The notes below the pieces were generated by a model. It had not been told where the DNA came from. It saw only the letters and a program-made list of their open reading frames with translations, and did no database searches. From an uncultured Gammaproteobacteria bacterium (lineage in GTDB: Bacteria > Patescibacteriota > Patescibacteriia > UBA1558 > 2-01-FULL-52-15), in NCBI GenBank assembly GCA_964441335.1, contig CAYTUI010000001.1, positions 961 through 64,960 of the forward strand: DNA of 64,000 nt, given 5' to 3'. The position numbers were made by a program, and so were the translations under genes. Shown piece after piece: positions 25,291 to 46,148 of the stretch (its first letter is position 1; every line of letters begins with the position of its first letter).

Positions 25291-25307
25291 GGAAGGAGGT
25301 GTATAAT

Positions 25308-25442: not shown

Positions 25443-25443
25443 T

Positions 25444-26878: not shown

Positions 26879-26886
26879 TTATAAAA

Positions 26887-27439: not shown

Positions 27440-28114
27440 ATGACAGTTAATAGAAAATATGAATTCGCCGTAATTGCTACCGACATTGCTATTTTCGCCG
27501 TAATTGATGGTAAATTACAGGTATTAATGATTGAGATGGTGAAACCACCTTTTACCGGTCAGTGGGCTTTACCGGGCGGACTGATAAAAATCACAGAGAC
27601 CGTTGAAAATGCGGCTAAGCGCACTTTGCTGGAAAAGACTGGCGTCCAGGATGTTTATCTGGAGCAGCTCTTTACTTTTGGTGAGGTTAACCGTGATCCT
27701 TTTGGGAGAGTGGTATCGGTAGCTTATTTTGTTTTAATTTCTGATCCAACCAAGTTAAAACTAAAGGCCGGACGAGAATATAGAAATATAGGCTGGAAAT
27801 CAGTTGATCGGTTGCCTGTTTTGGCTTACGATCACAAGAAAATAGTAGCGGTAGCTATTGAGCGTTTACGATCTAAATTATCTTATACTAATATTGTTTA
27901 TGGTCTATTGCCGAAAGAATTTACTTTAACAGAATTCCAAAGTCTATATGAATTAATTTTAGATCAGCAGTTTGATAAAAGAAATTTCCGTAAAAAAATG
28001 TTGTCATTAGGACTAATAAAGAAGTCAGGACGAAAACAGAGTGGAGTGGCTAACCGACCAGCCAACCTTTTTTCCTTTTCCAGCCGCTCCCCAAAAGTAG
28101 TAGAAATATTATAA
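27440..28114 (+). CDS. nrtR: NrtR-type regulator: Nudix-like ADP-ribose-binding domain fused to C-terminal winged helix
   Basis: Degenerate Nudix fold (QWALPGG...E....AAKR.L.EKTG) plus ~90-aa C-terminal domain; sits directly upstream of pnuC-nadR. A paralog lies at 40501. Confidence 0.7.
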   Translation: MTVNRKYEFAVIATDIAIFAVIDGKLQVLMIEMVKPPFTGQWALPGGLIKITETVENAAKRTLLEKTGVQDVYLEQLFTFGEVNRDPFGRVVSVAYFVLISDPTKLKLKAGREYRNIGWKSVDRLPVLAYDHKKIVAVAIERLRSKLSYTNIVYGLLPKEFTLTEFQSLYELILDQQFDKRNFRKKMLSLGLIKKSGRKQSGVANRPANLFSFSSRSPKVVEIL

Positions 28115-28162
28115 TTTTTTTTAATTAAAGATAGTGTAAATTTTACAATAAATAATAAAGCC

Positions 28163-28741
28163 ATGAGTACATATGAAATTATAGCGGTAGTCTTTGGTCT
28201 AATCTCGGTCTATCTGACTACCAGTCAAAATATTTGGAGTTGGCCAACAGGCTTAGTCAGCGTAGTAGCTTTTGGCTTATTGTTTTTTGACATCAAGCTC
28301 TACGCTGATGTTATTCTGCAAGCCTTTTTCTTTGTTACGGGTTTATTGGGCTGGTATTGGTGGAAGTTTGGAGGAAAGAATAAAACTGAGCTCCAAGTTA
28401 AGTTGTTGAAATCCGTAAGCCGCTGGTGGATATTTCTGTCTATAATTCCTTGCCTTGCTTTGATGGGTTGGCTGTTGTCAAACTACACCGACGCCTCATT
28501 ACCCTATTGGGATTCTTTTATCAGTGTCGTCAGCATTTTTGCACAGTTATTACTGACCAAAAAAATTTTTGAAAATTGGATTCTTTGGATAGCGGTAGAT
28601 ATTGTGGCTATAGGAGTTTATAGTTTTAAAGAAGTTTATTTAACAACCGGTTTGTATGTCATATTTTTATGCTTAGCGACAGTCGGATTAATAAAGTGGT
28701 ATAGATCATGGCAACAGCAAAAAAAAATAACGATAGCATAG
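28163..28741 (+). CDS. pnuC: Nicotinamide riboside transporter PnuC
   Basis: PnuC-like TM protein; the WxxW signature appears in variant form GWYWWKF; adjacent to nadR. Confidence 0.8.
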   Translation: MSTYEIIAVVFGLISVYLTTSQNIWSWPTGLVSVVAFGLLFFDIKLYADVILQAFFFVTGLLGWYWWKFGGKNKTELQVKLLKSVSRWWIFLSIIPCLALMGWLLSNYTDASLPYWDSFISVVSIFAQLLLTKKIFENWILWIAVDIVAIGVYSFKEVYLTTGLYVIFLCLATVGLIKWYRSWQQQKKITIA

Positions 28742-29712
28742 GTTTGGTGCTGGGAAAGTTTGCCCCGCTGCACAAAGGCCATCAGCTGCTAATTGAAACC
28801 GCCCGCCGGGAAATGGATAGGGTTAAGGTGATGATTTATAACTGTCCCGAAACAACAAATATTCCGTTGAACGTACGTTCCGGCTGGATCAAAAAGCTTT
28901 ATCCCGATGTCGAGGTGATTGAAGCCTGGGACGGACCAACTGAAACAGGACGGGCGGCCTGGATAAAGAAAAAAAATGAGGATTATGTTCTTAAAAAAAT
29001 AAATGAACCAATTTCAGCCTTTTACAGTAGTGAGTGGTACGGGGACCATATGAGCAAATTCTTAAACTGCGCCAATATTATGGTTGATAGGCCTCGTCAA
29101 AATTTTAACGTTTCAGGCACTAGAGTAAGAAACAACTCCTATCGTTACAGAAAGTATTTAGACCCCATTGTTTACAATGACTATTTGATCTCAGTTGTTT
29201 TATTGGGCGCTGAATCTTCTGGTAAGACAACTTTAACAAAAGCTTTGGCAAAAAAGTACAAGACAGTTTGGCTGCCGGAATACGGTCGCGAGTATTGGGA
29301 GAAAAATCAGCAGAACGGTTTATTGACTCATAATCAGCTGGTTGAGTTAGCAATTGAACATCGTCACCGTGAGTATGAGTTGATTATGAAAGCTAAAATT
29401 TTTTTATTTATCGATACTAATGCCATGACCACAGCGCTGTTTGATGAATATTACCATGGAGAAATAGATAGTCGACTCCAGAAAATGGCCAACGAAGATG
29501 CCGAGAGGCAGAATATTTTTCTGCTCTGCGATATCGATATTCCTTATGAAGACGACGGTAGCCGTTCCGGCGCAGAACATAGGATCAAATTTGCCAGGCG
29601 GATAGAGGAGGATCTACAGGCCAAAAAAGTCTCTTATTATAAGATCAGGGGAACATTGGAACAGCGTTTAAAACAGGTTAAGAAAATTTTAAATAGGATT
29701 GACATTTATTAG
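28708..29712 (+). CDS. nadR: NadR-like bifunctional NMN adenylyltransferase / ribosylnicotinamide kinase
   Basis: HxGH-type nucleotidyltransferase motif (GKFAPLHKGH) and P-loop kinase motif (LLGAESSGKTTL). Confidence 0.85.
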   Translation: MATAKKNNDSIGLVLGKFAPLHKGHQLLIETARREMDRVKVMIYNCPETTNIPLNVRSGWIKKLYPDVEVIEAWDGPTETGRAAWIKKKNEDYVLKKINEPISAFYSSEWYGDHMSKFLNCANIMVDRPRQNFNVSGTRVRNNSYRYRKYLDPIVYNDYLISVVLLGAESSGKTTLTKALAKKYKTVWLPEYGREYWEKNQQNGLLTHNQLVELAIEHRHREYELIMKAKIFLFIDTNAMTTALFDEYYHGEIDSRLQKMANEDAERQNIFLLCDIDIPYEDDGSRSGAEHRIKFARRIEEDLQAKKVSYYKIRGTLEQRLKQVKKILNRIDIY

Positions 29713-29957
29713 ATGGCTAATATTAGCAAAAAAATCCATCAGAATATTTTCGATAAGTATCTAAAATAAGGATTTTTATCGAAGATCTGCTGATTAATCT
29801 TCCTGACTTGACAAAAATGGCTAATTTTAGTAAACTTGGCCGTTTACTGTCAGGTCTTGGCAGGTAAATTTTTTTGCTCTTTGTTAAGGAATTTAGCAGT
29901 TTTAAACGCAGACCTTTTGGTCATCAACCACTACCCAGAAACGAGGAGGTATAGGCT

Positions 29958-30875
29958 ATGAAGAAGCCTTTCGGTCTCTACGATCCGTCTTTGGTCGGGA
30001 TAAACTACAAGCCGCGTATTGAAGAAGCGCGGGCAGAGGGTCGCGCGGCAGGTCTCAGTGATGCCTCAACGGATACCTTCCGGACCATGCTGGCGCTGAT
30101 CGATTTCCAGCAGTGCTTCACACGTCCGGGTATGCCGCTGTGTGTACCGGGGGCCGTGGATGATATCCGACGGATCATCGCCTGGATTCTGACCCATCCG
30201 GAGGAGATCACGCGCGTTCTGATTACCCTGGATTCTCACAGCGCCTTGCAGGTCTTCACCCGCTGGTGGTGGAAACATCGTGACGGCTATCATCCGGATG
30301 ACTTTACCGATATCCTCACCGACCGTGTGGAATCTGGTATATGGATTCCGCAGGTGATGCCGAAGTGGTCGAGAACCTACCCGCGCCGTCTTGAAGAGAG
30401 CGGACAGGCTCCGCTCAAGATCTGGCCCCAGCACGGCGAGGTGGGTAGTGAGGGCTGGCAGTTGGACCCGGCGTTGATCGAGGTGATCGAGTGGCTGTGC
30501 GCCGCCCGCAACATTGCCCCCACCTATCTCTTCAAGGGCAATGTGCCGGAGTCCGAGTACTACGGAATTTTCCGTCCCTGCATTCTGGTGCCGACTCACC
30601 CGGATGGGGGATGGAACTATCCACTACTCAACTGGTTCCCGACCTTCGACCGCGTCATTGAAGCTGGTGAAGCGGAGGAATTCTGCGTTGGCGAATCCAT
30701 GAAACAGCAGATCGCTCACTACCGCGAGGTTGATCCCGAGGTTCTCAAGAAGATCGTCTTCTTGCGCGACTGCACCTCCACTGTTCTGCCTGAGAACCGA
30801 GGCCGAGCGGATGAGCTGCTGGACACGATGAAGCACGTGGGCATCCAGGTGTCTACCACAACTGAGTTGGTCTAG
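29958..30875 (+). CDS. Isochorismatase-family hydrolase (nicotinamidase PncA-like), GC-rich
   Basis: ALIDFQQCF..G.PLCVPGA pattern resembles the isochorismatase/PncA N-terminal catalytic-Asp region; later FCVGES Cys. First gene of the GC-rich NAD island. Confidence 0.55.
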   Translation: MKKPFGLYDPSLVGINYKPRIEEARAEGRAAGLSDASTDTFRTMLALIDFQQCFTRPGMPLCVPGAVDDIRRIIAWILTHPEEITRVLITLDSHSALQVFTRWWWKHRDGYHPDDFTDILTDRVESGIWIPQVMPKWSRTYPRRLEESGQAPLKIWPQHGEVGSEGWQLDPALIEVIEWLCAARNIAPTYLFKGNVPESEYYGIFRPCILVPTHPDGGWNYPLLNWFPTFDRVIEAGEAEEFCVGESMKQQIAHYREVDPEVLKKIVFLRDCTSTVLPENRGRADELLDTMKHVGIQVSTTTELV

Positions 30876-31060
30876 TTGCTGGCTGGTTGGCAGACTGCTT
30901 GGGATGTTAAGCCGGGCTTGTGGGAGGGTCACGTCAGTGACCCTCCCACACCTAATTTTTTAGAAACTTGTTCCCAACAATCGTTGGAGACAAATTTCTA
31001 ACCTTGATTTTTTTGAGGTTATGCACCTTTCCAAGTCAACAACAAACAAGGAGGTAGCCG

Positions 31061-32449
31061 ATGCCTAAGGTGGCGGTTTTCGGAGGCAGTTTCAATCCGC
31101 CGGGTCAGCATCATTTTCTGATCGTCAGGGAATTGTTAGAGCGGGGCGGCTTTAATCAAGTGATTGTAGTGCCCTGCGGCCCGCGGCCGGATAAATTGAC
31201 TACAAACGATATCGATTCTGTCTCCAGAGCCACTATGGTCGATCTGACTTTCCGCGGCCTGGCGAACGTTGAAGTCGACCTGTTCGATCTGGAGAACGGT
31301 ACCTTTACCAGAACTCACCAGCTGGACAAGCGCTATGGCCAACGAGGTGATCTCTGGCATGTGGTCGGCACTGATTTGATCAGTGGCGGAGCCGTCGGTC
31401 AGTCCCAGATTCAGCGAGTTTGGAAAAACGGATCGGAAATTTGGAGTAGCCTCCAGTTTCTGGTCCTGGTGCGCAACGGGTACAAGCTGAATCAGGCAGA
31501 TTTGCCGCCGCGCAGTCAGGTTCAGCAACTGGATCTGGACGGTGCCAGCTCGGATATTCGGACGGCAGCCATGAATCACCGGTCGTTGGCCGGACTGGTC
31601 AGACCGGAGGTAGCCAGCTACATCGAGCGTCATGAACTCTATCGCGGTTCCTGGCCGCGGCGGACCACTCGCTTGCGCCTGGTGCAACCGCAGATCCTGG
31701 TCTTTCACGATCAGCGCAATGAGCGTGCGGTGGAAGTTGCTGCCGCTTTGCGCCGCTGGGAGTCGGATGACCCGAATCTGGTGGTGGCCGTTGGTGGAGA
31801 TGGCACTATGCTGCGCGCCATTCATCAGCACTGGCAGAGACATTTACCGTTTATCGGTATCAATGTCGGACACCGGGGGTTTCTGCTGAATAACCTGGAA
31901 GGCGATCAGCTGGCGGAAGTGGTTTCACAGGGTCTGGAGGTCCATCGTTCGCCGCTGTTGTACGTTGAGACCGTTACCAATCAGGGAGCTGAGCAACGGT
32001 CTTTGGTGGCCAACGATGCTTGGGTGCAGTGTCAGCCTGGCACTACGGGCTGGTTGGAGGTAAAAATTGACGGTCAGGTTCGCCTGCCACGTCTGGTCTC
32101 CGACGGTGTTCTGGTTTCAACCGCCGCCGGTTCTACCGCTTATGCCAGAGCCATGGGAGCAACGCCCATACCGGTTGGCACGCCGGAGCTAGTCCTAGTC
32201 GGTAACAACGTTCTGGAACCACCCAACTGGCGCTCGGCCTACCTGCCGCTGGACTCGCTGATTCAAATCAGGAGTCTCGATCAGGCTAGGCCGACCAAAA
32301 GGCCGATTCTGGGCTTTGTGGACGGTTTGTCTCTGGGCGAGATTCGGCAGTTGGATATCCGCGCCAGTCGGATAGCGGCTATTGAGCTAGCTTTCTTGCC
32401 CGGTTATAACCTCGGACACAAGCTGGCCGAGATCCAATTCCCTTCCTAG
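31061..32449 (+). CDS. Fusion protein: N-terminal NMN/NaMN adenylyltransferase (NadD/NadM-like) plus C-terminal NAD kinase (NadK)
   Basis: N-term GGSFNPPGQHH (HxGH-class); C-term GGDGTML, GINVGHRGFL and DGVLVSTAAGSTAYARAMG NAD-kinase motifs. Confidence 0.8.
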   Translation: MPKVAVFGGSFNPPGQHHFLIVRELLERGGFNQVIVVPCGPRPDKLTTNDIDSVSRATMVDLTFRGLANVEVDLFDLENGTFTRTHQLDKRYGQRGDLWHVVGTDLISGGAVGQSQIQRVWKNGSEIWSSLQFLVLVRNGYKLNQADLPPRSQVQQLDLDGASSDIRTAAMNHRSLAGLVRPEVASYIERHELYRGSWPRRTTRLRLVQPQILVFHDQRNERAVEVAAALRRWESDDPNLVVAVGGDGTMLRAIHQHWQRHLPFIGINVGHRGFLLNNLEGDQLAEVVSQGLEVHRSPLLYVETVTNQGAEQRSLVANDAWVQCQPGTTGWLEVKIDGQVRLPRLVSDGVLVSTAAGSTAYARAMGATPIPVGTPELVLVGNNVLEPPNWRSAYLPLDSLIQIRSLDQARPTKRPILGFVDGLSLGEIRQLDIRASRIAAIELAFLPGYNLGHKLAEIQFPS

Positions 32450-32459
32450 TCGTTGAAAG

Positions 32460-32491
32460 CCGCAGGGACGAGCAGCAGCTCGTCCCTGCGG
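32460..32491 (+). terminator. Hairpin terminator CCGCAGGGACGAGC-AGC-AGCTCGTCCCTGCGG
   Basis: 14-bp perfect stem; followed by AT-rich spacer with a second palindrome CCTTGTTTCAAACAAGG. Confidence 0.55.
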
Positions 32492-32600
32492 ACCCAATTT
32501 TGAAATAAAGAATTGCCAGTTTTATAAGTTGTCAGTTCCTTGTTTCAAACAAGGCCAAGTTCTTTGTAAATCTAAGAGATCAAAACCAAGGAGGAAAAAC

Positions 32601-33188
32601 GTGGAACGTACGGTGATTCATAGCGGTTTTTTGCAGCTGGAAGTTGTGGCAACACCACAGGGCCAGAGGGAGCTGGTGCGTACCACTGATTCTCTTTGCC
32701 TGTTGATTTTCGATCAGCTACGCAATCGGCTGATCTTAGTTCGACAGCCGCGGCCTTCACAGATGTCTGAACTCAATCCCGATAGTCCCCTGGCCAATCG
32801 CGAGGGGCTGATCACCGAGTGCTGCGCCGGCCGTTTCGACGGTCGGTATTCTCCGCTGGAGTTGGCGGTCAAGGAAGCCGAGGAGGAAACTGGTATTCAG
32901 GTCAATCCGGAGAATGTCGAGCTGCTGAACGGCGGGCGGCCCATGGCTGTGTCCGCCGGGGTCATCACGGAGTTATCCTATCTGGCGTACGTGAGGATCA
33001 CTTCAGATACCTCCGGTCTCGACCAGAAGTTGCACGGTCGGGCAGATGAGGGTGAGGAGATTCGTCTGGTCAGTCTGGACGCGGATCCTCGTTATCTGCA
33101 GGTGTACTTGGGCGGAGCTTGTCAGGACATTCGTGTCTTCACTCTGCTGCAGTATCATCTCAACAAGATGGAATGTCAGGTGTCCTGA
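32601..33188 (+). CDS. NUDIX hydrolase, ADP-ribose pyrophosphatase-like (start GTG at 32601 after AAGGAGG)
   Basis: Nudix box AGRFDGRYSPLELAVKEAEEETGI; strong SD 7 nt upstream of GTG. ORF track lists 32529..33188. Confidence 0.7.
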   Translation: MERTVIHSGFLQLEVVATPQGQRELVRTTDSLCLLIFDQLRNRLILVRQPRPSQMSELNPDSPLANREGLITECCAGRFDGRYSPLELAVKEAEEETGIQVNPENVELLNGGRPMAVSAGVITELSYLAYVRITSDTSGLDQKLHGRADEGEEIRLVSLDADPRYLQVYLGGACQDIRVFTLLQYHLNKMECQVS

Positions 33189-33212
33189 CAGTTTCCAGGA
33201 GAGGAGTTTTCA

Positions 33213-34838
33213 GTGAGGAGTCTGTATCAAATCGTTCAGCAGATGTTTCCCCTGCAGCGTCTACCCTGGGATGAGTACTTCGCGGCCATGGCGCAGTCCG
33301 ACTTCAAGCTCGGGCGGCACCAGATTCCGGCCACCAAGTCATTCTTTATCAGGTCGGCGCCGTTTGGCGGATCGTTTGCGCTGCTGGGCGGTATTACCGA
33401 AGCCCTACGAACCATCAACGAGTTGCGCTTTGACGCAGATTTCCGGGCGATCATGGAGGAATTCGGCTACGAAGCCGATTTCCTGGACTGGTTGCAATCG
33501 GAAGAACGGTTGAAGGTTCAGGTCTACGCGCCGCCGGAAGGCAGCGTTTTCTTCCCCAGCGAGCCCGTGGTCACTTTTCGTGGGCCGTTGGCGCACATTC
33601 GGCTGGTCGAAGGCATGATGATTGAGGCGCTGAACTTCTCTACCTTGTCACTGACCAAATGGCAGCGACTGGTCAGGGTGGTGCGCCCCGGCTCTGTGTT
33701 GGAGTTCGCTCGTCGGCGATCGCAGCATCATCTCCGATCCTCGCTTTACGGTTTGCTGGCCGGTTGCCGGCAGATCAGCAACAGCGAAGCGGCCCGTCTG
33801 ATCGGCGTAAAGCCGGTCGGTACCATGGGTCATGAGTGGATGCAGTCGTTCGGCGATGTCCGCGAGGCCTTCGATGCCTGGCTCAAGGTCAATCCGCATA
33901 AGCCTGTTGGCTTGGTGGATACCTTGCAGTGTCTGGAGATCGATTTTCCGGCTTGGCTGGAGGCGGTCTACGAGCAGCGCGAGGTTGTAAAGGCCGCTGA
34001 CAGTCCGATCTGGGGCTGGCGCAACGATTCGGGTGACCTTGCCTACCTGACTATTGAGCAGTACATTCGCTTTTGGAAGCATCTGCTGTCTCAGGATCAG
34101 TGGTTTGCCGACCGCATGCACATTGTGCTGACCAACGATCTGGATGAGTACTCTTCGGAGGAAATCATCCAGCAGATTCGTAGCCAGGCCGGAGCCGCCG
34201 GTTTGGATGCCGAGGATCTGCTCCGACGGATCATTTGGGCGGCCGGTACCAAGCCGGGCACCTGCTATGATCAGCCGGCTTTGGGCGGCGTAGCCAAGCT
34301 GATGGAAGTCGATGGTCATGGCTGCATCAAGCTGGCTTTCGATGCCGACGGTAATCCGGGCGCCAAGACCTCGATTCCGGGGTTCAATCGCTCAGCGCTG
34401 ATCCGCGATCGTGATTCCGGTGAAGTTCACTGCCTGTTGATCTATCCGGCCGAGGACACTACTTTCCATCTGTTTGAGCATGATGGAGAAGGTTACTTCG
34501 GTGACGGGCGGAAGGGAGACGCTTGGGAGACCATTACCGCACATCATCCGGACACGCCCGGTTCGGAGCTGCACATCAAGAACTATCTGGTTCAGGGACG
34601 ACAGCAGCTGGTCTTTGATACGATCGATCAGAACGGCCTGACCGACGAGTGGATAGAGGACACTGTACAGTCGGTGGCTGAACGGGTTGTGAGGGAAATT
34701 GATTCCCTGCACTGGACTGTCAGCCGTCTCCGCAAGCCTCATCGGGTCAAGGTCTCTGTCACAGAAGGTCTGTTTGAGCAGCGGACGAATCTGATTCGTA
34801 CCCGCTGTCTGCGAACGGACAAGATGTGGAAGCAGTAG
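33213..34838 (+). CDS. pncB: Nicotinate phosphoribosyltransferase (PncB/NAPRT family, long form)
   Basis: N-terminal DEYFAAMAQ...SFFIRSAPFGGSFALLGGI..AL..L.ELRF and VYAPPEGSVFFPSEPVVTFRGPLAHIRLVE..MIEALNF.TL match type II PRTase NAPRTase conservation. Confidence 0.75.
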   Translation: MRSLYQIVQQMFPLQRLPWDEYFAAMAQSDFKLGRHQIPATKSFFIRSAPFGGSFALLGGITEALRTINELRFDADFRAIMEEFGYEADFLDWLQSEERLKVQVYAPPEGSVFFPSEPVVTFRGPLAHIRLVEGMMIEALNFSTLSLTKWQRLVRVVRPGSVLEFARRRSQHHLRSSLYGLLAGCRQISNSEAARLIGVKPVGTMGHEWMQSFGDVREAFDAWLKVNPHKPVGLVDTLQCLEIDFPAWLEAVYEQREVVKAADSPIWGWRNDSGDLAYLTIEQYIRFWKHLLSQDQWFADRMHIVLTNDLDEYSSEEIIQQIRSQAGAAGLDAEDLLRRIIWAAGTKPGTCYDQPALGGVAKLMEVDGHGCIKLAFDADGNPGAKTSIPGFNRSALIRDRDSGEVHCLLIYPAEDTTFHLFEHDGEGYFGDGRKGDAWETITAHHPDTPGSELHIKNYLVQGRQQLVFDTIDQNGLTDEWIEDTVQSVAERVVREIDSLHWTVSRLRKPHRVKVSVTEGLFEQRTNLIRTRCLRTDKMWKQ

Positions 34839-34970
34839 AGCTGCTACAAGCCGGTGGTCACCAGCAGGTGACCACCGGCCCTTACTTCAGCCTTGTCATA
34901 AAGAAAATGAAAGGGTTGAAGAGAGGCTAGTTCATTCAATGTCTATTCTAAAACCAAGGAGGTGCTCTAA

Positions 34971-35927
34971 ATGAGTTCTGCTCAGCCGATCGCTCACGGT
35001 AGCGGTCAAATGGGGGCGCAGTCTATCTCCATTCAGGTATCCACGCGGGAGCGTTGCAACGCCGGTTGTCGTTTTTGCATTTCGCGAACAACGCCGGGAG
35101 TGGAAACACCGGGCAATCCTCATGAAGTTAAGTTCTGCGATGAGCCGCGTCTGCAGGTCGGGTTGAACTATGCCCGGCAGTTGGGTGCGACGCATGCTAT
35201 CCTGACATCACGAGCTGATCCTTCGCAGGAGGACCCAAGGTATCTGCACCGACTGATCAGTACCAGTCGTCAGTTCTTGCCGCTAGTGGACATGCATACC
35301 AATGGTTTTCTTTGGCTGCCTGGTAAGCCGCAAGCCGATGATCTGTCTATACTGGTGGTTTCGGGTCTGACCATGCTTACTCTGTCGATCGCTTCTTTCG
35401 ATCAAAATCAGAATAGAGAGCTGATGATGATCCGCGAAAGCGGTGCCGGTTTGATCCGTCGGGCTCGGGATTTGGGTCTGCTGGTCCGCTGCTCTTTGGT
35501 TGTCAATTCCCAGGGAGTCAACGATTACCAGGGGGTTATCAACTACATCAAACAGGCCGGCAACCTGGGAGCCCACATGGTGGTCGTTAGAGAAGTCTGG
35601 CGACCGGAAGTGTATGGCGATTTCCAGCCCGAAGTGCTGGACTGGAACAACTGCAACTGGGTGGATATCGGTCCGATCCAGAGTCAGTTTATCCAGGCCG
35701 CCGGCCAGAGGGACAACCCTTACGGCTTGCAGCTTCGTGACCCCTTGCCCTGGGGCACACCGGTTATGGTGATGGGCGGAGTGTTCGACGACCCCAATCA
35801 TGGGGTCAATATCACTTTCGCTCGTTGCGAGGAGGGTACCAGGGGCTCGACCATTAAGAGCATCGTCCATAAGCCCGATGGTCACGGTTATCGCAACTGG
35901 GATCACAACGGCGATATCCTCTACTGA
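34971..35927 (+). CDS. Radical SAM domain protein (CX3CX2C)
   Basis: RERCNAGCRFCISRT cluster-binding motif near N-terminus; no further family assignment possible by eye. Confidence 0.6.
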   Translation: MSSAQPIAHGSGQMGAQSISIQVSTRERCNAGCRFCISRTTPGVETPGNPHEVKFCDEPRLQVGLNYARQLGATHAILTSRADPSQEDPRYLHRLISTSRQFLPLVDMHTNGFLWLPGKPQADDLSILVVSGLTMLTLSIASFDQNQNRELMMIRESGAGLIRRARDLGLLVRCSLVVNSQGVNDYQGVINYIKQAGNLGAHMVVVREVWRPEVYGDFQPEVLDWNNCNWVDIGPIQSQFIQAAGQRDNPYGLQLRDPLPWGTPVMVMGGVFDDPNHGVNITFARCEEGTRGSTIKSIVHKPDGHGYRNWDHNGDILY

Positions 35928-36057
35928 TTAGGTGGAGGACGGGGCATCTGCGTCGGCGCAGATGCCCCCTTTCCCGAGGTCTTATCATCTATAGATAAGG
36001 TCTTAGGAGAGTTCAGTTCTTTAACACGCAACCATCTAAAACCAAGGAGGAGAGGGA

Positions 36058-38082
36058 ATGCTAAAGTCCGAACAGTTTATGGACGTTCGACAGCATGGGT
36101 TTATCCGTTTGGCCGTGATTGTACCCAGAGTTCATTTGGGCAATGTACCGGCAAACGTGGCTGAACATCTGATGAAGATCAGCGAGGTTCGCAGACAAGG
36201 CGCCAGTTATATAGTGGCTCCTGAGTTGAGTCTGACCGGCTACTCCAACGGCGATCTGTTTCATTCACAGGCACTGCTGGAAGCGGCCGTGATCGGTTTG
36301 GGCGAGTTGCTGGAGGCAACGGCAGCCTGGCCGCAGATCATCTCGGTCGGCCTGCCCCTGCTGGTGGACGGCGCGGTCTACAACTGTGCTGTGACCATTC
36401 ATCGGGGCGTTATTCTGGCGGTGGTGCCTAAGGCCTATCCGCCGGAGTATCGCGAGTTTTATGAGCAGCGGCACTTCGCCTCGGCCTATGAGGCTCAGTC
36501 CACTGTTATCAACCTGCTGGGTCAGACAGCTGCTTTCGGAACCGACATTTTGTTGGTTTCGGATCACAACCCGCGTCTGACGATTCACACCGAGGTCTGC
36601 GAAGATCTTTGGGTGCCGATTCCGCCCAGCACTGAGGCGGCTCTAGCTGGCGCAACGGTGCTGGCCAACCTGTCGGCTTCCAATATCACCATCGGTAAGA
36701 GCGGATATCGGGAGCTGTTGGTGGCCGGATCGTCAGCCAAGAATCTGGCTGTGCAGATGTACAGCGCGGCAGGTTTCGGTGAGTCCACGACTGACCTGTC
36801 CTGGGACGGGGAAGCCCTGATCGCCGAGCGTGGCGAAATTCTGGTCAGGGGTCAGCGTTTCAGCCTTGACGGCGGCACTTCAGTTGTGGCCGACGTGGAT
36901 CTGGAGCTGTTGGCACTGGAACGCGCCAGGCAGAATTCCTTCAGGTCAAACGCCAGTCAGCATCCCCGTAAGTTCCGGCGCATCCTGATTACTGGACAGT
37001 TATCTGATGCTGTTCAGGACGGGCTGGAGCAGGTGCATCACAAGTTGCACCGCTTCGTGGATCCGCATCCCTTCGTGCCTAGCGACCAGTCTCAGCGCGA
37101 TGAGCGCTGTCGGGAAACTTTCCTGATTCAGGCAACGGCTTTGGCCAGACGGCTGGAACAGCTGCCACAGGATCGTCGGCACGTGGTGGTGGGTATTTCC
37201 GGTGGACAGGATTCAACGCACGCGCTCAACGTGGCGGTCCATGCTATGGATCTCATGAAGATGCCGCGTCGCAACATCCTGGCGGTAACCATGCCGGGGT
37301 TCGGCACAACCGACCTGACAAAGAACAATGCCGTGGCATTGGTCAAAGCGGTCGGCGCTGAACTGCTGGTGATTCCCGTTAGTGAACTGTCGCTCCTGAT
37401 GTTCCAAAACATCGGGCATAATCCGGATGAGCACGACCTGACCTACGAGAACGTTCAGGCTTGGGCCCGGATGTATACGGAGCTGTCATTAGCTGCCGAG
37501 AAAGGAGGGTTGGTACTGGGGACTGGTGACTTGTCGGAGCTGATGCTTGGCTGGTGTACTTACCTGGGTGATCACGCCAGTCATTATGGTATCAACGCCG
37601 GTGTGCCCAAGACTCTTATTTCCTATCTGATCGCCTGGACCGCAGAGCAGGTCTATGGAGAGAAGGAACCGGAAGTTAGGGGTATTCTGCAGAGCATTCT
37701 GGTAACTCCGATATCACCGGAGCTCTTACCACCGGCGGCTGACGGTTCTATAGCGCAGAGAACGGAAGACAAGGTTGGACCATATGAGCTGCATGATTTC
37801 TTCGGTTATTACTTCGTTCGCTTTGGTTTCAGCCCCAAGCGCATCGTGCGTCTGGCATTGGCTGCCTTTGGCGACAAGTACTCCATCGGAGAGATCAAGT
37901 CTTGGTTCAGGCTCTTCCTGACTCGTTTCTTCCGGAATCAGTTCAAGCGATCTTGTTTGCCCGATGGTCCCAAGGTAGGTCTGACGTGCATCTCGCCTCG
38001 CGGTGACTGGCGGATGCCCTCGGATGCTGACCCGACTGTTTGGCTTCAGGATCTGGAGCTGGTACCGGACAACCTCAACTAG
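36058..38082 (+). CDS. nadE: Glutamine-dependent NAD+ synthetase NadE (nitrilase-like glutaminase domain plus NAD synthetase domain)
   Basis: N-terminal CN-hydrolase fold (IVAPELSLTGY, ...CEDLW); C-terminal PP-loop VVGISGGQDST and long 674-aa architecture like actinobacterial NadE. Confidence 0.9.
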   Translation: MLKSEQFMDVRQHGFIRLAVIVPRVHLGNVPANVAEHLMKISEVRRQGASYIVAPELSLTGYSNGDLFHSQALLEAAVIGLGELLEATAAWPQIISVGLPLLVDGAVYNCAVTIHRGVILAVVPKAYPPEYREFYEQRHFASAYEAQSTVINLLGQTAAFGTDILLVSDHNPRLTIHTEVCEDLWVPIPPSTEAALAGATVLANLSASNITIGKSGYRELLVAGSSAKNLAVQMYSAAGFGESTTDLSWDGEALIAERGEILVRGQRFSLDGGTSVVADVDLELLALERARQNSFRSNASQHPRKFRRILITGQLSDAVQDGLEQVHHKLHRFVDPHPFVPSDQSQRDERCRETFLIQATALARRLEQLPQDRRHVVVGISGGQDSTHALNVAVHAMDLMKMPRRNILAVTMPGFGTTDLTKNNAVALVKAVGAELLVIPVSELSLLMFQNIGHNPDEHDLTYENVQAWARMYTELSLAAEKGGLVLGTGDLSELMLGWCTYLGDHASHYGINAGVPKTLISYLIAWTAEQVYGEKEPEVRGILQSILVTPISPELLPPAADGSIAQRTEDKVGPYELHDFFGYYFVRFGFSPKRIVRLALAAFGDKYSIGEIKSWFRLFLTRFFRNQFKRSCLPDGPKVGLTCISPRGDWRMPSDADPTVWLQDLELVPDNLN

Positions 38083-38088
38083 AGGTTT

Positions 38089-38131
38089 GACCCCGCCCCA
38101 ACACTTTTGTGTCATGGGCGGGGTCTTTTTT
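38089..38131 (+). terminator. Rho-independent terminator closing the GC-rich NAD island
   Basis: GACCCCGCCC-loop-GGGCGGGGTC followed by TTTTTT. Confidence 0.7.
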
Positions 38132-38312
38132 AATTTGATAGACCTTCGTACCGCCAGCCATTGGCTGATCGGGGCTTCGGTTTGGGGGCCTTAGATTTGT
38201 TTATTTTGTTAAATATATAAGCTTCAATGCTTAGCGCAGAAGTAGTTTGATCATCCTTGACAGCCTTAATTTTACCAGCTTAAATTAAGTTATAATTTGT
38301 AGTTATAAAAAT

Positions 38313-41202: not shown

Positions 41203-41418
41203 TTTATCAGGGCGATATTTTTTTGCTTGTGAATAAGTGTCTACTTGACACTTATTTTGATTGTTGCTAAGGTAGAGGCAGAGGAGAAAGTGGACAACTA
41301 TTTAAGGGATTGACAAAATTCTATAAATATTGTAGGTTCACCAACTCTGTTTCTTTGACAATTTATAAGATATTTATAGTGAAATGGCCAAGAAACCTTG
41401 AAAGGAGGTGGACGACCA

Positions 41419-42245
41419 TGATTGTGAAACACGGAGACCGGCAATTCGAAGCCGGTCGTCTGGTGGCCGATAACGGCCGTTATCGCCAGTATCTCTGCGT
41501 GGAGATTGGCGCTGACAAGGAAAAGGAGTGTTTGTTGCAGATCGCCACCGCTACCAATGGTAACGGTCAACTCGATCGGGCAGCCTACTTCCTTCAGGAA
41601 CTTGAGCGTCGAGCTCGCGAAGTGGAGAAGGAGTTCAAGAAGGTCAGAACCGATCCCAAGGTGATGCTCAATTACGGGCTGGGCTTTCCCAAGCTGGTTG
41701 ACAGCTTCGTCTGTCAGGAGCAGGGCGGCCGCCGTATCAACATCCTGGCTTTCAGACGCGTTGATCAGGTTGGTCAGATGATCCCTTTGAGTAGTGTGAT
41801 CAAAAGCAACCTGATGATTGACCGTCGTACTAGCGTCTGGATTCTGGGAAAGCTTCTCAAGCTGTTGACTTTTAGTCACAGTGAAGGGATTGCTGTCGGA
41901 CGCCTGGACGCTGACAACATTCTGCTTCAGCCGAATCAGCACTACGTGGTGTTGTTTGACTGGTCGGAAGGAAGTCAGTATCCGGAAAAAGTGCCTGCGG
42001 AAATCGCCTGTCAGGAGATCACTCAAGCTGCCATATCAGTTATGGCCGCCCTGTACTATGATCCGGAGTCTGGGAAATTCCCTGACGATCCGGATGATCC
42101 TGACGATCGTTATGTCAAGCACCTGATGACTCTGGCTAAAGGTCAGGAGCATCGGGCGGATCAGGCTCACCAGGAATTCTACAAACTGGTTGACACTATC
42201 TGGGAAAGGAGATTCTACCCCTTTACGACTCGACCGAAGTTCTGA
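41419..42245 (+). CDS. APH/ChoK-like (aminoglycoside-phosphotransferase-fold) small-molecule kinase-like protein, GC-rich
   Basis: Catalytic-loop-like GRLDADNILL and metal-binding VVLFDWSEG (IDWE-type) motifs; start ATG 41419 after AAAGGAGG. ORF track lists 41310..42245. Confidence 0.5.
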
Positions 42246-42288
42246 AGCTACGCTACGTTAGACCAACGAAAGAAGGAGGACGAGTACT

Positions 42289-43452: not shown

Positions 43453-43498
43453 CTCCTTAACCTGACAACCGTAAATCCTAAACCAAAGAGAGGTGACT

Positions 43499-44884: not shown

Positions 44885-44913
44885 ATGCGTGAACGCGAAA
44901 GGAGATAGTGCAG

Positions 44914-46083: not shown

Positions 46084-46111
46084 ATCCAACGCGGTTCTGG
46101 AGTAACCTTGG

Positions 46112-46148
46112 GGCCGGACAACGACATGTTGTCCGGCCTCTTTTTTTA
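46112..46148 (+). terminator. Rho-independent terminator (GGCCGGACAACG-ACAT-GTTGTCCGGCC plus T9)
   Basis: Perfect 11-bp stem then TCTTTTTTTT; marks end of GC-rich island 2. Confidence 0.75.

What the first reader, a model, noticed from the sequence alone, without database searches (positions are those of the whole stretch)
29940..38131. GC-rich (about 60%) horizontally acquired island encoding a complete Preiss-Handler/NAD(P) salvage pathway
Six co-directional genes sit on DNA about 20% higher in GC than the genome: PncA-like, NadD-NadK fusion, ADPR-Nudix, PncB, radical SAM and NadE. Each is preceded by a short AT-rich spacer and a near-identical leader (T/A)C(T/A)AAAACCAAGGAGG (before 32601, 34971, 36058). 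The AAGGAGG SD is also found before the genes of island 2. The island ends with a strong terminator at 38089-38131. The high-GC donor is compatible with Actinomycetota, the known hosts of epibiotic Saccharibacteria. For a reduced-genome symbiont, capture of a whole cofactor salvage pathway is biologically significant.
Basis: partly seen in the sequence, partly recalled or inferred. Interest (0 to 1): 0.7.

Follow-up and report, generated by a model that had tools for sequence, protein, structure and literature searches.

The report
Foreign NAD-salvage operon in a Parcubacterium
A small groundwater bacterium of the Parcubacteria group (not Saccharibacteria) carries a six-gene vitamin-B3-to-NAD(P) recycling operon whose DNA composition and translation signals mark it as imported. 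The nearest relatives of its genes, its gene order and its folded RNA-like spacers are all found in other Patescibacteria, not in Actinomycetota.

Summary
A block at about 29.91-38.20 kb is 55-57% GC against about 40% in the flanks (GC3 0.63-0.71 against 0.32-0.45). It has six co-directional genes: a nicotinamidase-like protein, a NadD-NadK fusion, a Nudix, NAPRTase, a radical SAM protein and glutamine-dependent NadE. The 13-mer AAAACCAAGGAGG occurs three times, and the only canonical terminator is at 38089-38131.

Two parts of the interpretation fail.
- The recipient is a Parcubacteria-group organism. TopA is 65-69% identical to Ca. Komeilibacteria. It is not a Saccharibacterium.
- No protein points to Actinomycetota. 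The best NadE, radical SAM and long-PncB relatives, and the gene order NadD(K)-Nudix-PncB-…-rSAM-NadE, are Patescibacterial. Codon usage best matches the NAD cluster of a 53% GC Komeilibacterium (r = 0.87).

New points:
- Native genes have no Shine-Dalgarno sequence. Every gene of island 1 and three of the four genes of island 2 have GGAGG.
- Islands 1 and 2 share codon usage (r = 0.90).
- The spacers hold two covarying hairpin motifs, absent from Rfam and found only in Patescibacterial NAD clusters.
- A second population carries the island at the same site, with its Nudix-PncB cassette swapped.
- The radical SAM family is known only from Patescibacteria and has no assigned function.

The parts
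27440..28114 (+). Native-GC NrtR-family regulator (NrtR1), part of the resident NAD regulon into which the island is set
   Evidence: Pfam NrtR_WHD 81 bits plus NUDIX 55 bits. GC 0.38, no SD. Candidate operator TGTGTATATAATACAGT at 27408-27424.
28163..29712 (+). Native-GC PnuC transporter (28163-28741) and NadR-type NMN adenylyltransferase/ribosylnicotinamide kinase (28708-29712): the resident nicotinamide-riboside salvage route
   Evidence: PF04973 171 bits. TIGR01526 160 bits plus AAA_28 105 bits, both NCBIfam matches below their curated cut-offs. GC 0.38-0.41, no SD. NrtR box AGTGTAAATTTTACAAT at 28133-28149.
29808..29836 (+). Sigma-70-like promoter (TTGACA-17-TAAACT) in native AT-rich DNA upstream of the first island gene; the likely driver of the operon (inferred)
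   Evidence: 10 of 12 consensus match. It overlaps the second copy of the direct repeat ATGGCTAAT(A/T)TTAG(C/T)AAA.
29910..38195 (+). The GC-rich island proper. The left junction lies just after GTTTTAAAC (29899-29907). The right junction is about 65 nt past the terminator, where GC falls to the native level.
   Evidence: Fine-scale GC profile and sequence reads. The junctions are approximate and are inferred from composition.
29958..30875 (+). g1: long (305 aa) nicotinamidase-like isochorismatase-fold hydrolase, taken as the PncA step
   Evidence: No Pfam or NCBIfam hit. AF2 pLDDT 96.6. The top 15 PDB fold matches are all nicotinamidase/pyrazinamidase chains, E from 6e-12 to 4e-8. D49, K193 and C243 plus H94 and H159 are invariant, and D92 is at least 90% conserved, in 50 homologues.
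30919..30950 (+). Intercistronic GC hairpin after g1. The U-run is 7 nt from the stem.
   Evidence: 14-bp perfect stem, -32.1 kcal/mol, z = -7.0.
30956..31035 (+). Type A leader motif (two covarying hairpins plus a GCACCTTT box) upstream of nadD-nadK
   Evidence: cmsearch 74.5 bits, E = 2.7e-13. This copy is one of the sequences the model was built from. Covariation statistics.
31061..32449 (+). g2: NadD-like adenylyltransferase fused to NAD kinase
   Evidence: PF01467 plus PF01513; NF003406 142 bits and TIGR00482 82 bits, both below their curated cut-offs. GGDG motif present. Variant motif GGSFNPPGxHH is conserved in the family. About 1100 homologues, the best at 50-55%.
32460..32491 (+). Intercistronic GC hairpin after g2
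   Evidence: 14-bp perfect stem, -32.0 kcal/mol, z = -8.5.
32601..33188 (+). g3: Nudix hydrolase of the YffH/AdpP (ADP-ribose pyrophosphatase) type; 24 nt from pncB with no hairpin between
   Evidence: TIGR00052 48.9 bits, below its cut-off of 79.55; PF00293 22.2 bits. The tight Nudix-PncB pair also occurs in L035 and L036.
33213..34838 (+). g4: long-type nicotinate phosphoribosyltransferase (PncB)
   Evidence: NF006695 255 bits (below its cut-off of 469); NAPRTase_N and NAPRTase_C. PDB 2f7f 137 bits. 58% identical to the L035 gene.
34852..34880 (+). Intercistronic GC hairpin after g4, with no U-run
   Evidence: -29.1 kcal/mol, z = -6.9.
34879..34943 (+). Type B leader motif upstream of the radical SAM gene
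   Evidence: cmsearch 35.8 bits, E = 2.3e-4. This copy is one of the sequences the model was built from. Covariation.
34971..35927 (+). g5: radical SAM protein of a family named only from Patescibacteria; function unknown, fold nearest to nucleotide-modifying radical SAM enzymes
   Evidence: C29-x3-C33-x2-C36 is invariant. 155 homologues, every named one from a CPR lineage. AF2 pLDDT 91.8. The fold is nearest MoaA, viperin and BlsE. No PADLOC hit.
35940..35970 (+). Intercistronic GC hairpin after g5
   Evidence: -30.1 kcal/mol, z = -4.7.
35967..36028 (+). Type B leader motif upstream of nadE
   Evidence: cmsearch 36.6 bits, E = 1.5e-4. This copy is one of the sequences the model was built from.
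36058..38082 (+). g6: glutamine-dependent NAD+ synthetase (NadE, long form)
   Evidence: NF002730 824 bits, above its cut-off of 473. 61-64% identical to Patescibacterial NadE. Falls in a Patescibacterial clade, 93/100.
38089..38131 (+). The only canonical intrinsic terminator of the operon (stem followed directly by U6)
   Evidence: -27.8 kcal/mol, z = -5.7; sequence read.
41236..46140 (+). Island 2, same donor type: an NrtR box at 41236-41252, then four genes (41418-42245, 42289-43452, PurA-like 43493-44884, 44908-46083) and a terminator at 46110-46140
   Evidence: GC 0.52-0.63; GGAGG upstream of three of the four genes, a weaker AGAGAG upstream of the PurA-like one. RSCU r = 0.90 with island 1. 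A PurA-like gene lies directly beside the NAD cluster in Uhrbacteria L037, 33% identical. Box with 0 mismatches. Terminator.

Best explanation
The block is a laterally acquired copy of a gene cluster typical of Patescibacteria (the CPR): an NAD(P) salvage and recycling operon.

Host and donor. The host is a 40% GC Parcubacteria-group bacterium related to Ca. Komeilibacteria. The donor was most likely another Patescibacterium of higher GC, about 53-60%. It was not an actinobacterium.

Site. The block landed next to the host's own NrtR-PnuC-NadR nicotinamide-riboside module.

How it works (inferred from the families):
1. The nicotinamidase-like g1 converts nicotinamide to nicotinate.
2. PncB plus PRPP makes NaMN.
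3. The NadD domain makes NaAD.
4. NadE makes NAD+.
5. The fused NadK domain makes NADP+.
6. The Nudix enzyme splits ADP-ribose, the other product of NAD consumption, into AMP and ribose 5-phosphate.
7. The radical SAM enzyme is a conserved member of the cluster with an unknown step, probably acting on a nucleotide.

Transcription (inferred). The six genes are probably read as one unit, from a host-type promoter at about 29808 to the single canonical terminator at 38131.

Donor-type punctuation. Between the genes the island keeps a strong GGAGG ribosome-binding site, which host genes lack. It also keeps a GC hairpin after each cistron and two kinds of conserved, covarying leader hairpin motifs. 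Their role is not established: regulatory RNA, mRNA processing or stability, or recombination joints.

Shown: composition, gene content, folds and motifs, nearest relatives, synteny, motif covariation and motif distribution.
Inferred: the direction and source of the transfer, the operon structure, the enzyme activities and the function of the leaders.
For: Foreignness:
- GC 55-57% against about 40%. GC3 0.66 against 0.39. RSCU correlation with native genes is 0.11.
- All six island genes have GGAGG-type SDs. None of about 40 native genes does. The closest relative by TopA (L039, 72%) also lacks SDs.

A Patescibacterial cluster type:
- The order NadD(K)-Nudix-PncB-(HisPhos)-rSAM-(Prs)-NadE, in whole or in part, recurs in six loci: L003 (Buchananbacteria), L006 (Parcubacteria), L036 (Komeilibacteria), L037 (Uhrbacteria), L038 and L035.
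- Best identities: rSAM 70% and 68% (L035, and Komeilibacteria L036); long PncB 58% (L035); NadE 61-64%; Nudix 50%; NadDK 53%.
- The NadE tree puts the window in the Patescibacterial clade, 93/100.

Donor-like composition:
- RSCU r = 0.87 with the Komeilibacteria L036 cluster (GC3 0.63). Clusters of 59-66% GC also exist, in L035 and L037.

Function:
- Family hits.
- g1 has a nicotinamidase fold with a conserved catalytic triad and metal site.

Leaders:
- Type A: 92% of cells paired, 16 of 23 pairs with compensatory changes, 0 of 500 shuffles reach the observed score.
- Type B: 87.5% of cells paired, 11 of 11 pairs with compensatory changes, 0 of 500 shuffles.
- In 540 kb searched, every hit with E below 0.01 lies in a locus that carries NAD-salvage genes, on the sense strand. 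These include copies not used to build the models, in L030, L004 and L020.
- No Rfam family matches.

Real and stable:
- Identical junctions in independent assemblies.
- A second population (L040) has the same NadR|g1 junction at 94.7% identity.
Against: - No donor is identified. The best matches are only 50-70% identical and differ from gene to gene. The L036 NadE and the short PncB of L003, L006 and L036 are different subtypes, so the cluster is a mosaic.
- No integrase, transposase or flanking direct repeats were found.
- No empty site was seen in a relative.
- rSAM identity to Komeilibacteria (68%) is about the same as TopA identity to Komeilibacteria (65-69%). That is what vertical descent would also give.
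- In L003, L030, L035, L036 and L038 the NAD cluster is also richer in GC than some of the neighbouring DNA. Part of the contrast may therefore be a property of the cluster and not a sign of a recent event.
- The taxonomy rests on submitters' names for MAGs.
- L035 has no name, and L020 is labelled Gammaproteobacteria.
Confidence: 0.7

Rival explanations
1. The island came from Actinomycetota, the hosts of epibiotic Saccharibacteria.
For: GC of about 56% is compatible with some Actinomycetota. The long glutamine-dependent NadE type also occurs in mycobacteria: PDB 3dla scores 544 bits, and its organism is from my own knowledge.
Against: - The recipient is Komeilibacteria-like, not a Saccharibacterium.
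- NadE is much closer to Patescibacterial NadEs (880-953 bits, 59-64% identity) and next to Binatia and Deltaproteobacteria.
- Named rSAM hits are Patescibacterial only.
- Named NadD-NadK hits include no Actinomycetota.
- The synteny and the leader motifs are shared with Patescibacterial clusters.
Confidence: 0.03
2. The cluster is an old, vertically inherited Patescibacterial NAD locus. Its high GC, its SDs and its hairpins are kept by the cluster's own dynamics and do not reflect a discrete import. Those dynamics could be frequent homologous exchange between lineages, GC-biased gene conversion, or selection on its structured mRNA.
For: - The cluster, with the same order, is widespread in Patescibacteria.
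- rSAM identity to Komeilibacteria is about the same as TopA identity.
- In L003, L030, L035, L036 and L038 the NAD cluster exceeds some of the neighbouring DNA by roughly 5-15 GC points.
- L040 shows cassette-level allelic replacement bounded by 98.7-99.2% identical spacers, so recombination is active here.
Against: - Codon usage is uncorrelated with native genes (r = 0.11) yet nearly identical between two separate islands (r = 0.90).
- A third, unrelated GC-rich gene with an SD (7012-7719) also shows the foreign signature.
- The flanks of the cluster differ in every genome seen.
- PncB and NadE subtypes are swapped between genomes.
Confidence: 0.2
3. The block is an assembly chimera: a contig of a 56% GC organism joined into a 40% GC genome by the assembler.
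For: The source is a metagenome, and abrupt GC steps are a classic sign of a chimera.
Against: - Both junctions of both islands are reproduced at 99.98-100% identity in contigs from ENA/MEGAHIT, Logan and JGI, built from different runs.
- An independent run from another project (SRR22388171) gives a diverged copy with the same NadR|g1 junction.
- An NrtR box matching the native regulon lies directly upstream of island 2.
Confidence: 0.02
4. The cluster is a phage-derived or defence-related NAD module: a counter-measure to NAD-depleting immunity, or a viperin-like antiviral system built round the radical SAM gene.
For: The rSAM fold resembles viperins. NAD-reconstitution pathways are known in phages (from my own knowledge).
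Against: - None of the 10 island proteins hits PADLOC.
- The rSAM family has no relative in 2.9 million viral contigs.
- No phage genes lie nearby.
- The same cluster sits among chromosomal genes in many Patescibacteria.
Confidence: 0.05

Closest known systems
Bacterial Preiss-Handler salvage (PncA, PncB, NadD, NadE) under the NrtR regulon, as in the comparative genomics of Rodionov and colleagues (recalled from memory, not read here)
   Same: The same four enzymatic steps are encoded. A Nudix ADP-ribose pyrophosphatase and NrtR-family regulators with AGTGT-N7-ACACT-like boxes are in the neighbourhood.
   Different: - PncA is replaced by a long 305-aa nicotinamidase-like family that Pfam does not see.
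- NadD is fused to NadK and carries a GxHH motif instead of HxGH.
- A radical SAM gene is an integral member of the cluster.
- No NrtR box lies upstream of island 1.
- Each cistron has its own hairpin and leader motif.
Patescibacterial NAD clusters found here: L035 (GCA_040960375.1), L036 (Ca. Komeilibacteria GCA_043801745.1), L037 (Ca. Uhrbacteria RIFOXYB12_FULL_58_10), L003 (Ca. Buchananbacteria), L006 (Parcubacteria Gr01-1014_20) and L038
   Same: - Gene order NadD(K)-Nudix-PncB-…-rSAM-NadE.
- Strong SDs.
- A GC hairpin after each gene.
- Type A leader before nadD(K) and Type B leader before rSAM, nadE, prs or HisPhos.
   Different: - The window's copy is trimmed. It lacks the histidine phosphatase, PRPP synthetase, ADP-ribosylglycohydrolase, NDT-like protein, LSDAT proteins and canonical PF00857 PncA that the others carry.
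- It sits in a genome 16 GC points poorer that does not use SDs.
- It is split from its PurA-like module by native DNA.
NAD+ riboswitches class I (nadA motif) and class II (pnuC motif)
   Same: Structured elements in 5' leaders of NAD-metabolism genes, with hairpins that covary.
   Different: No match to any Rfam family, even at E up to 5. Ligand binding is untested. The motifs recur before almost every gene of the cluster, not once per operon. The predicted folds do not hide the SD more than shuffled leaders do.
Classical genomic islands
   Same: Sharp GC and codon-usage discontinuity, tRNA genes within 2 kb (tRNA-Pro, tRNA-Asn), and a metabolic cargo.
   Different: No integrase, no flanking direct repeats, and no mobility genes in the window.
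MoaA / viperin / BlsE group of radical SAM enzymes
   Same: The nearest folds (Foldseek E from 4.5e-11 to 6e-9), a CxxxCxxC cluster site, and known substrates that are nucleotides or nucleosides.
   Different: Only 12-18% identity. No MoaA-type second cluster motif was identified. No PADLOC viperin hit. The genomic context is strictly NAD salvage.

Membership tests
Preiss-Handler NAD salvage pathway | Nicotinamidase (nicotinamide to nicotinate) | tested here: inconclusive
   For: g1 has a nicotinamidase fold, an invariant D-K-C triad, and a D/H/H metal site (H94 and H159 invariant, D92 at least 90% conserved). Against: no PF00857 hit, and L036 carries both a canonical PncA and a g1-like gene. 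The g1 family may therefore act on a related substrate. Activity was not assayed.
Preiss-Handler NAD salvage pathway | Nicotinate phosphoribosyltransferase | tested here: met
   NAPRTase_N and NAPRTase_C domains; NF006695 255 bits and TIGR01513 234 bits, both below the NCBIfam cut-offs. PDB NAPRTase 2f7f, 137 bits.
Preiss-Handler NAD salvage pathway | NaMN adenylyltransferase (NadD) | tested here: inconclusive
   The N-terminal domain matches TIGR00482 (82 bits, cut-off 112) and PF01467. The signature is GGSFNPPGxHH, not HxGH, and this variant is conserved in the family. The preference for NaMN or NMN cannot be tested here.
Preiss-Handler NAD salvage pathway | NAD+ synthetase (NadE) | tested here: met
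   NF002730 824 bits, above its cut-off of 473, with CN_hydrolase and NAD_synthase domains.
Horizontally acquired genomic island | Composition and codon usage differ from the host | tested here: met
   +16 GC points. GC3 0.66 against 0.39. RSCU r = 0.11 with native genes.
Horizontally acquired genomic island | Mobility signatures (integrase, direct repeats, tRNA target) | tested here: not met
   No integrase or transposase domains in the flanking genes. No flanking direct repeats. The tRNAs lie 2 kb away and not at a junction.
Horizontally acquired genomic island | Absent from the same site in relatives | not testable with these tools
   The only close relative recovered, L040 (about 95% identity), has the island. 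L039 (TopA 72%) does not cover the site.
Horizontally acquired genomic island | Phylogeny disagrees with the host lineage | tested here: inconclusive
   The nearest relatives are Patescibacteria, the host's own phylum. Resolution within the phylum is too low to separate transfer within the phylum from vertical descent.
   The best named TopA hits are Komeilibacteria, Kerfeldbacteria and the Parcubacteria group. There is no Saccharibacteria name among the 120 proteins listed.
Radical SAM superfamily (g5) | CxxxCxxC cluster motif and partial TIM-barrel fold | tested here: met
   C29, C33 and C36 are invariant. The fold matches MoaA and viperin. The window protein is below the Pfam cut-off (21 against 29.5 bits), but most homologues are annotated PF04055.
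Prokaryotic viperin defence (pVip) | Match to the defence-system models | tested here: not met
   No PADLOC hit.
Known NAD+ riboswitches / any Rfam family (leaders) | Covariance-model match | tested here: not met
   Nothing but tRNAs reaches a gathering score. No NAD-related family appears at E up to 5 in the window, L035 or L036.
Riboswitch-like cis-regulatory RNA (leaders, as a new class) | Conserved structure with covariation, tied to one gene set | tested here: met
   One caveat: the alignments were fitted to the structure, and hairpins are also DNA palindromes.
Riboswitch-like cis-regulatory RNA (leaders, as a new class) | Ligand binding or an expression platform | tested here: not met
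   The predicted SD accessibility (mean 0.38) is no lower than for shuffled leaders (0.32), and only 9 of 24 leaders are lower than their shuffles. Ligand binding cannot be tested here.

The most novel reading that the evidence does not exclude
Patescibacterial NAD-recycling clusters may carry two things that have not been described. First, two new classes of cis-acting structured RNA, Type A and Type B, repeated before almost every cistron. They could sense an NAD-pathway metabolite or set the stoichiometry of the cistrons. Second, a lineage-specific radical SAM enzyme of the MoaA/viperin fold that would perform an unknown nucleotide-level step in NAD(P) or ADP-ribose metabolism. The window would then show this whole package, ribosome-binding sites included, transplanted into a host that otherwise starts translation without a Shine-Dalgarno sequence.
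Probability: 0.35. Interest if true: 0.8.

Novelty: new variant of a known kind. Interest (0 to 1): 0.6.

Why it matters
CPR/Patescibacteria are thought to depend on others for most cofactors. A self-contained, mobile operon shared between lineages, which recycles both products of NAD breakdown (nicotinamide and ADP-ribose) into NAD and NADP, would show how these reduced cells secure an essential cofactor.

The locus is also a natural experiment. SD-led foreign genes sit in a host whose own genes have no SD. The cassettes are visibly exchanged between populations at conserved spacers.

It yields three directly testable items: a new long nicotinamidase-like family, a CPR-only radical SAM enzyme tied to NAD genes, and two covarying leader motifs absent from Rfam.

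Tried and rejected
- Actinomycetota donor and Saccharibacteria recipient: rejected.
- Known riboswitches or other Rfam families in the spacers: none.
- The conserved CCTTT box hiding the SD: the predicted SD accessibility is no lower than in shuffled leaders. Not supported.
- GTTTTAAAC as the NrtR operator: it is enriched in the window (6 copies against 1.3 expected; 5 of them lie between 27.28 and 38.38 kb, in or beside the NAD locus). It is not conserved upstream of NrtR or PnuC in L020, L030 or L031. The conserved box is AGTGT-N7-ACACT instead, and it is absent upstream of g1.
- GCTAATATTAGC palindrome: not enriched in the window.
- Flanking direct repeats or att sites: none convincing.
- Defence or phage origin: no PADLOC hits and no viral contig.
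- Integron-like cassette array: considered because each gene has its own hairpin. The hairpins are short perfect GC stems, and no integrase is present in the window. There was no formal attC search.
- Sister genomes: all contigs recovered by exact protein look-up are the same population at 99.98-100% identity, except L040.
- NadD-NadK homologues from a large-genome assembly (L026/L027), a Planctomycetes MAG (L028) and the unnamed contig of the best hit are stand-alone genes with no cluster, so they say nothing about the donor.
- Literature searches for CPR NAD salvage found nothing relevant.
- The BioProject paper only confirms a groundwater origin.

Full report
1. THE OBSERVATION

The window is about 40% GC. 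Two blocks stand out, at 30-38 kb (55.2-57.4% in 1-kb windows) and at 42-46 kb (55-63%). At 150-nt resolution the first block rises between 29900 and 29975 and falls between 38150 and 38225.

It contains six + strand ORFs: 29958-30875, 31061-32449, 32601-33188 (GTG start, as in the metagenome gene calls), 33213-34838, 34971-35927 and 36058-38082.

Their GC is 0.55-0.58 and their GC3 0.63-0.71. About 40 native ORFs have GC3 of 0.32-0.45.

The 13-mer AAAACCAAGGAGG occurs three times, only before 32601, 34971 and 36058. The expectation is 0.14, and 0 of 100 shuffles reach three.

The stem at 38089-38125 (-27.8 kcal/mol, z = -5.7) is followed at once by U6.

The block is not an assembly artefact. 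Contigs from ENA, Logan and JGI, built from different runs, reproduce both junctions at 99.98-100% identity.

2. WHAT THE GENES ARE

- g2 is a NadD-like adenylyltransferase fused to NAD kinase (PF01467 plus PF01513; NF003406 142 bits; TIGR00482 82 bits).
- g3 is a Nudix hydrolase of the YffH/AdpP ADP-ribose pyrophosphatase type.
- g4 is a long NAPRTase.
- g6 is glutamine-dependent NadE (NF002730, 824 bits).
- g1 has no Pfam or NCBIfam hit.
  - A search of 1.84 billion representatives found about 1500 relatives.
  - In 50 of them D49, K193 and C243 plus H94 and H159 are invariant, and D92 is at least 90% conserved.
  - The AlphaFold model (pLDDT 96.6) matches nicotinamidase/pyrazinamidase chains in its first 15 PDB hits: A. 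baumannii, yeast Pnc1, P. horikoshii, Drosophila, Leishmania, B. subtilis, M. tuberculosis and S. pneumoniae.
  - 'PncA-like' is therefore justified. One caveat: a Komeilibacteria cluster (L036) has both a canonical PF00857 PncA and a g1-like gene.
- g5 has the invariant CxxxCxxC motif. Its model (pLDDT 91.8) is nearest to MoaA, viperins and BlsE, which are nucleotide- or nucleoside-modifying radical SAM enzymes. It matches no defence model.
- In the NadD-like domain the usual HxGH signature is replaced by GGSFNPPGxHH. This variant is conserved across the fusion family, and GGDG is present in 119 of 120 members.

3. SURROUNDINGS

Immediately upstream, at native GC and without SDs, lie an NrtR-family regulator (27440-28114), PnuC (28163-28741) and a NadR-type NMNAT/ribosylnicotinamide kinase (28708-29712).

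Downstream come two native ORFs of unknown function, tRNA-Pro, tRNA-Asn and a second NrtR (40501-41202; the start is probably 40528, as called in L022). Then comes island 2.

Comparison with the NrtR loci L020, L030 and L031 gives a box AGTGT-N7-ACACT. In the window it occurs:
- upstream of NrtR2, with no mismatch (40505-40521);
- upstream of island 2, with no mismatch (41236-41252);
- upstream of PnuC, with one mismatch (28133-28149);
- upstream of NrtR1, with two mismatches (27408-27424).
It does not occur upstream of g1.

The host therefore already had nicotinamide-riboside salvage. The island adds the nicotinamide/nicotinate route, NADP formation and ADP-ribose breakdown.

4. WHO IS THE HOST

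The best named relatives of TopA (52682-54880) are Ca. Komeilibacteria (69% and 65%), Kerfeldbacteria and the Parcubacteria group. No Saccharibacteria name appears among the 120 proteins listed.

The closest contig, L039 (TopA 72%, RelA 73%, ParA 75%), is syntenic for Mfd-DprA-TopA-RelA-ParB-ParA. It is 46% GC and also lacks SDs.

The samples are groundwater.

5. WHERE THE ISLAND COMES FROM

NadE. Among 185,579 species-representative genomes, the nearest NadE sequences are Patescibacterial: L006 64%, L004 62%, L003 61%. Binatia and Deltaproteobacteria follow at 54-56%, and no Actinomycetota were retrieved.
- A neighbour-joining tree groups the window with L003, L004, L006, L020 and L035 in 93 of 100 bootstraps.
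- phmmer scores are 880-953 bits to the full-length sequences of that group (L006 is truncated and scores 821). They are about 783-849 bits to Binatia, Deltaproteobacteria, Thermodesulfobacteriota and Pseudomonadales MAGs, and 544 bits to PDB 3dla. I recall 3dla to be M. tuberculosis NadE.

Radical SAM. It has only 155 relatives in 5.8 billion proteins. Every named one is from a CPR lineage: Komeilibacteria 68%, Uhrbacteria, Buchananbacteria, Falkowbacteria and Parcubacteria.

NadD-NadK. The fusion has about 1100 relatives, the best 50-55% identical, named from Planctomycetota, Verrucomicrobiota, Acidobacteriota and Patescibacteria. In the three non-CPR contexts examined it stands alone.

Synteny. 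Six Patescibacterial loci carry the same cluster type, in whole or in part:
- L035: PncA, two LSDAT genes, NadDK, ARH, Nudix, long PncB (58%), an NDT-like gene, HisPhos, rSAM (70%), NadE (62%). It is 59-65% GC.
- L036 (Komeilibacteria): PP2C, a 624-aa protein, a g1-like gene, a 272-aa protein, PncA, NadDK, Nudix (50%), PncB, HisPhos, rSAM (68%), NadE. It is 53% GC.
- L037 (Uhrbacteria): two unknown genes, a PurA-like gene, PncA, NadDK, PncB, IUNH, Nudix, HisPhos, rSAM, NadE. It is 63-66% GC.
- L003, L006 and L038: variants of the same cluster.

Codon usage. Islands 1 and 2 are nearly identical (RSCU r = 0.90) and uncorrelated with native genes (0.11 and -0.01). They are closest to the L036 Komeilibacteria cluster (0.87 and 0.84).

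The most economical reading is import from a higher-GC Patescibacterium. No donor above 70% identity is in the databases. PncB and NadE subtypes differ between clusters, so the cluster family is a mosaic.

6. TRANSLATION SIGNALS

None of the native ORFs has GGAGG within 25 nt of its start. Many have TATAAT-like sequences a few bases upstream, which suggests leaderless or short-leader mRNAs.

All six genes of island 1, three of the four genes of island 2 and one more GC-rich gene (7012-7719, minus strand, 52% GC) have a GGAGG-type SD. The PurA-like gene of island 2 has only AGAGAG.

The same AAAGGAGG sites punctuate the clusters of L003, L006, L035, L036 and L038.

7. THE SPACERS

After g1, g2, g4 and g5 there are perfect GC hairpins (-29 to -32 kcal/mol, z from -4.7 to -8.5). 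They either lack a U-run or have it 7-8 nt away from the stem. Only the last hairpin, after nadE, is a canonical terminator.

Downstream of these hairpins the spacers carry two motifs shared with the other Patescibacterial clusters.

Type A lies before nadD(K), and in L035 also before ARH and Nudix. It has the form TTT-AGARA-[long bulged stem]-TYTCT-[second hairpin]-GCACCTTT.
- RNAalifold predicts 23 pairs, 15 of them with compensatory changes.
- On the model-based alignment 92.1% of cells pair and 16 of 23 pairs show double changes. The covariation score is 0.599, against 0.265 when shuffled (0 of 500) and at most 0.19 when the partners are slid.

Type B lies before rSAM, nadE, prs, HisPhos and the NDT-like gene. 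It has the form CTTTT-CTCRAGC-[hairpin]-GCTYRAG…GTCCTTT.
- All 11 modelled pairs have compensatory changes and 87.5% of cells pair. The score is 0.645 against 0.288 (0 of 500).

Distribution. Covariance models searched over 540 kb (the window plus 30 loci, including about 250 kb that is not CPR) hit only loci that carry NAD-salvage genes, on the sense strand. The hits include copies not used in training:
- L030 3403-3482, 56.6 bits;
- L004 106-170, 45.1 bits;
- L020 12049-12113;
- two more in L030.
In the window the hits are at 30956-31035 (Type A) and at 34879-34943 and 35967-36028 (Type B).

No Rfam family matches, even at E up to 5.

Mechanism. I tested whether the conserved CCTTT box hides the SD. 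Predicted SD accessibility (0.38) is no lower than with shuffled leaders (0.32), and only 9 of 24 leaders are lower than their shuffles. That mechanism is not supported.

What the motifs do is open. They may be metabolite- or protein-responsive RNA, processing or stability signals that set cistron ratios, promoter-operator DNA, or recombination joints.

Upstream of g1 only a tail resembling the 3' end of Type A remains (ACCTTTTGGTCATCAACC…GAGGAGG). This suggests that the left junction cut through a leader (inference).

8. A SECOND POPULATION

L040 (SRR22388171) has NrtR-PnuC-NadR-g1-NadDK-Nudix-PncB-rSAM with the same GC contrast. Divergence along it is blockwise:

| Segment | nt identity to the window |
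|---|---|
| NrtR | 73% |
| PnuC | 78% |
| NadR | 94.8% |
| spacer upstream of g1 | 94.7% |
| g1 | 94.8% |
| g2 | 96.4% |
| spacer 2 | 98.7% |
| Nudix | 78.2% |
| PncB | 76.9% |
| spacer 4 | 99.2% |
| rSAM | 94.9% |

The island therefore predates the split of these two populations. The Nudix-PncB cassette has since been replaced by a diverged allele that is equally GC-rich, with the breakpoints in the conserved spacers.

9. VERDICT

The feature is real and foreign in composition.

The block is best described as a trimmed copy of a Patescibacteria-specific NAD(P) salvage and recycling operon, set beside the host's own NrtR/PnuC/NadR module. It still carries the translation signals and structured spacers of its source.

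Vertical inheritance with cluster-specific composition remains a minority alternative. In L003, L030, L035, L036 and L038 the NAD cluster is also richer in GC than some of the neighbouring DNA.

The most novel elements are the CPR-only radical SAM enzyme and the two leader motifs. They are supported as conserved features, but their functions are unknown.

Noticed in passing
window 41236-46140: Island 2 has four genes, three of unknown function and one very divergent PurA-like (72 bits to purA models, cut-off about 400). It has the same codon usage as island 1 (r = 0.90) and is preceded by a perfect NrtR-type box, AGTGTCTACTTGACACT. In Uhrbacteria L037 a PurA-like gene (33% identical) lies directly beside the NAD cluster, so island 2 probably belongs to the same functional package.
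   Followed up: partly
whole window, e.g. upstream of 976, 12657, 38313, 46199(-), 52682(-); also L039: Native genes have no Shine-Dalgarno sequence. Many have a TATAAT-like box a few bases before the ATG, which suggests leaderless or short-leader mRNAs. The closest relative, L039, shows the same. Only the GC-rich foreign genes have GGAGG.
   Followed up: partly
window 7012-7719 (-): A third foreign-looking gene: 52% GC, GC3 0.64, GAGGAGG before a TTG start, and no family hit in NCBIfam. Pfam was not run on it.
   Followed up: no
window 27408-27424, 28133-28149, 40505-40521, 41236-41252: Candidate NrtR operators of the form AGTGT-N7-ACACT, conserved upstream of NrtR and PnuC in L020, L030 and L031. 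The box at 40505 lies inside the longest NrtR2 ORF, so the true start is probably 40528.
   Followed up: partly
window 27283, 27346, 29666(-), 29899, 38368: GTTTTAAAC occurs 6 times in the window against 1.3 expected. Five copies lie between 27.28 and 38.38 kb, in or beside the NAD locus, and one sits at the left island junction. It is not conserved upstream of NrtR or PnuC in related loci. Meaning unknown.
   Followed up: partly
L040 5196-7428 against window 32601-34838: The Nudix-PncB cassette is only 77-78% identical between two populations that are otherwise about 95% identical. The bounding spacers are 98.7-99.2% identical, which points to cassette exchange by recombination in the spacers. 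NrtR-PnuC is likewise 73-78% identical.
   Followed up: partly
L003, L030, L035, L036, L038: In each of these Patescibacterial loci the NAD cluster is roughly 5-15 GC points richer than some of the neighbouring DNA, for example L038 at about 41% against about 30%. This suggests repeated lateral spread, or a composition intrinsic to the cluster.
   Followed up: partly
L006 72-4526, L036 1-4667, L030 2379-8364, L038 1-4008: A recurring module accompanies NAD clusters: a PP2C phosphatase, a protein of about 620 aa with no Pfam hit, a g1-like nicotinamidase-fold protein and a protein of 262-277 aa. The window has kept only the g1-like gene.
   Followed up: no
window 29713-29730 and 29817-29834: Direct repeat ATGGCTAAT(A/T)TTAG(C/T)AAA containing the palindrome GCTAATATTAGC. 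The second copy lies between the -35 and -10 boxes of the predicted promoter upstream of g1, so it is a possible operator.
   Followed up: partly
window 14797-27279: A dense native cluster for copper and heavy-metal handling: HMA-DsbD_2-cupredoxin proteins, two P-type ATPases and a DsbA-like thioredoxin. It lies just upstream of the NAD locus.
   Followed up: no
L020 (labelled uncultured Gammaproteobacteria, 42% GC): It carries an NrtR 52% identical to the window's, a NadE in the Patescibacterial clade and a Type B leader. The bin's taxonomic label is probably wrong.
   Followed up: no
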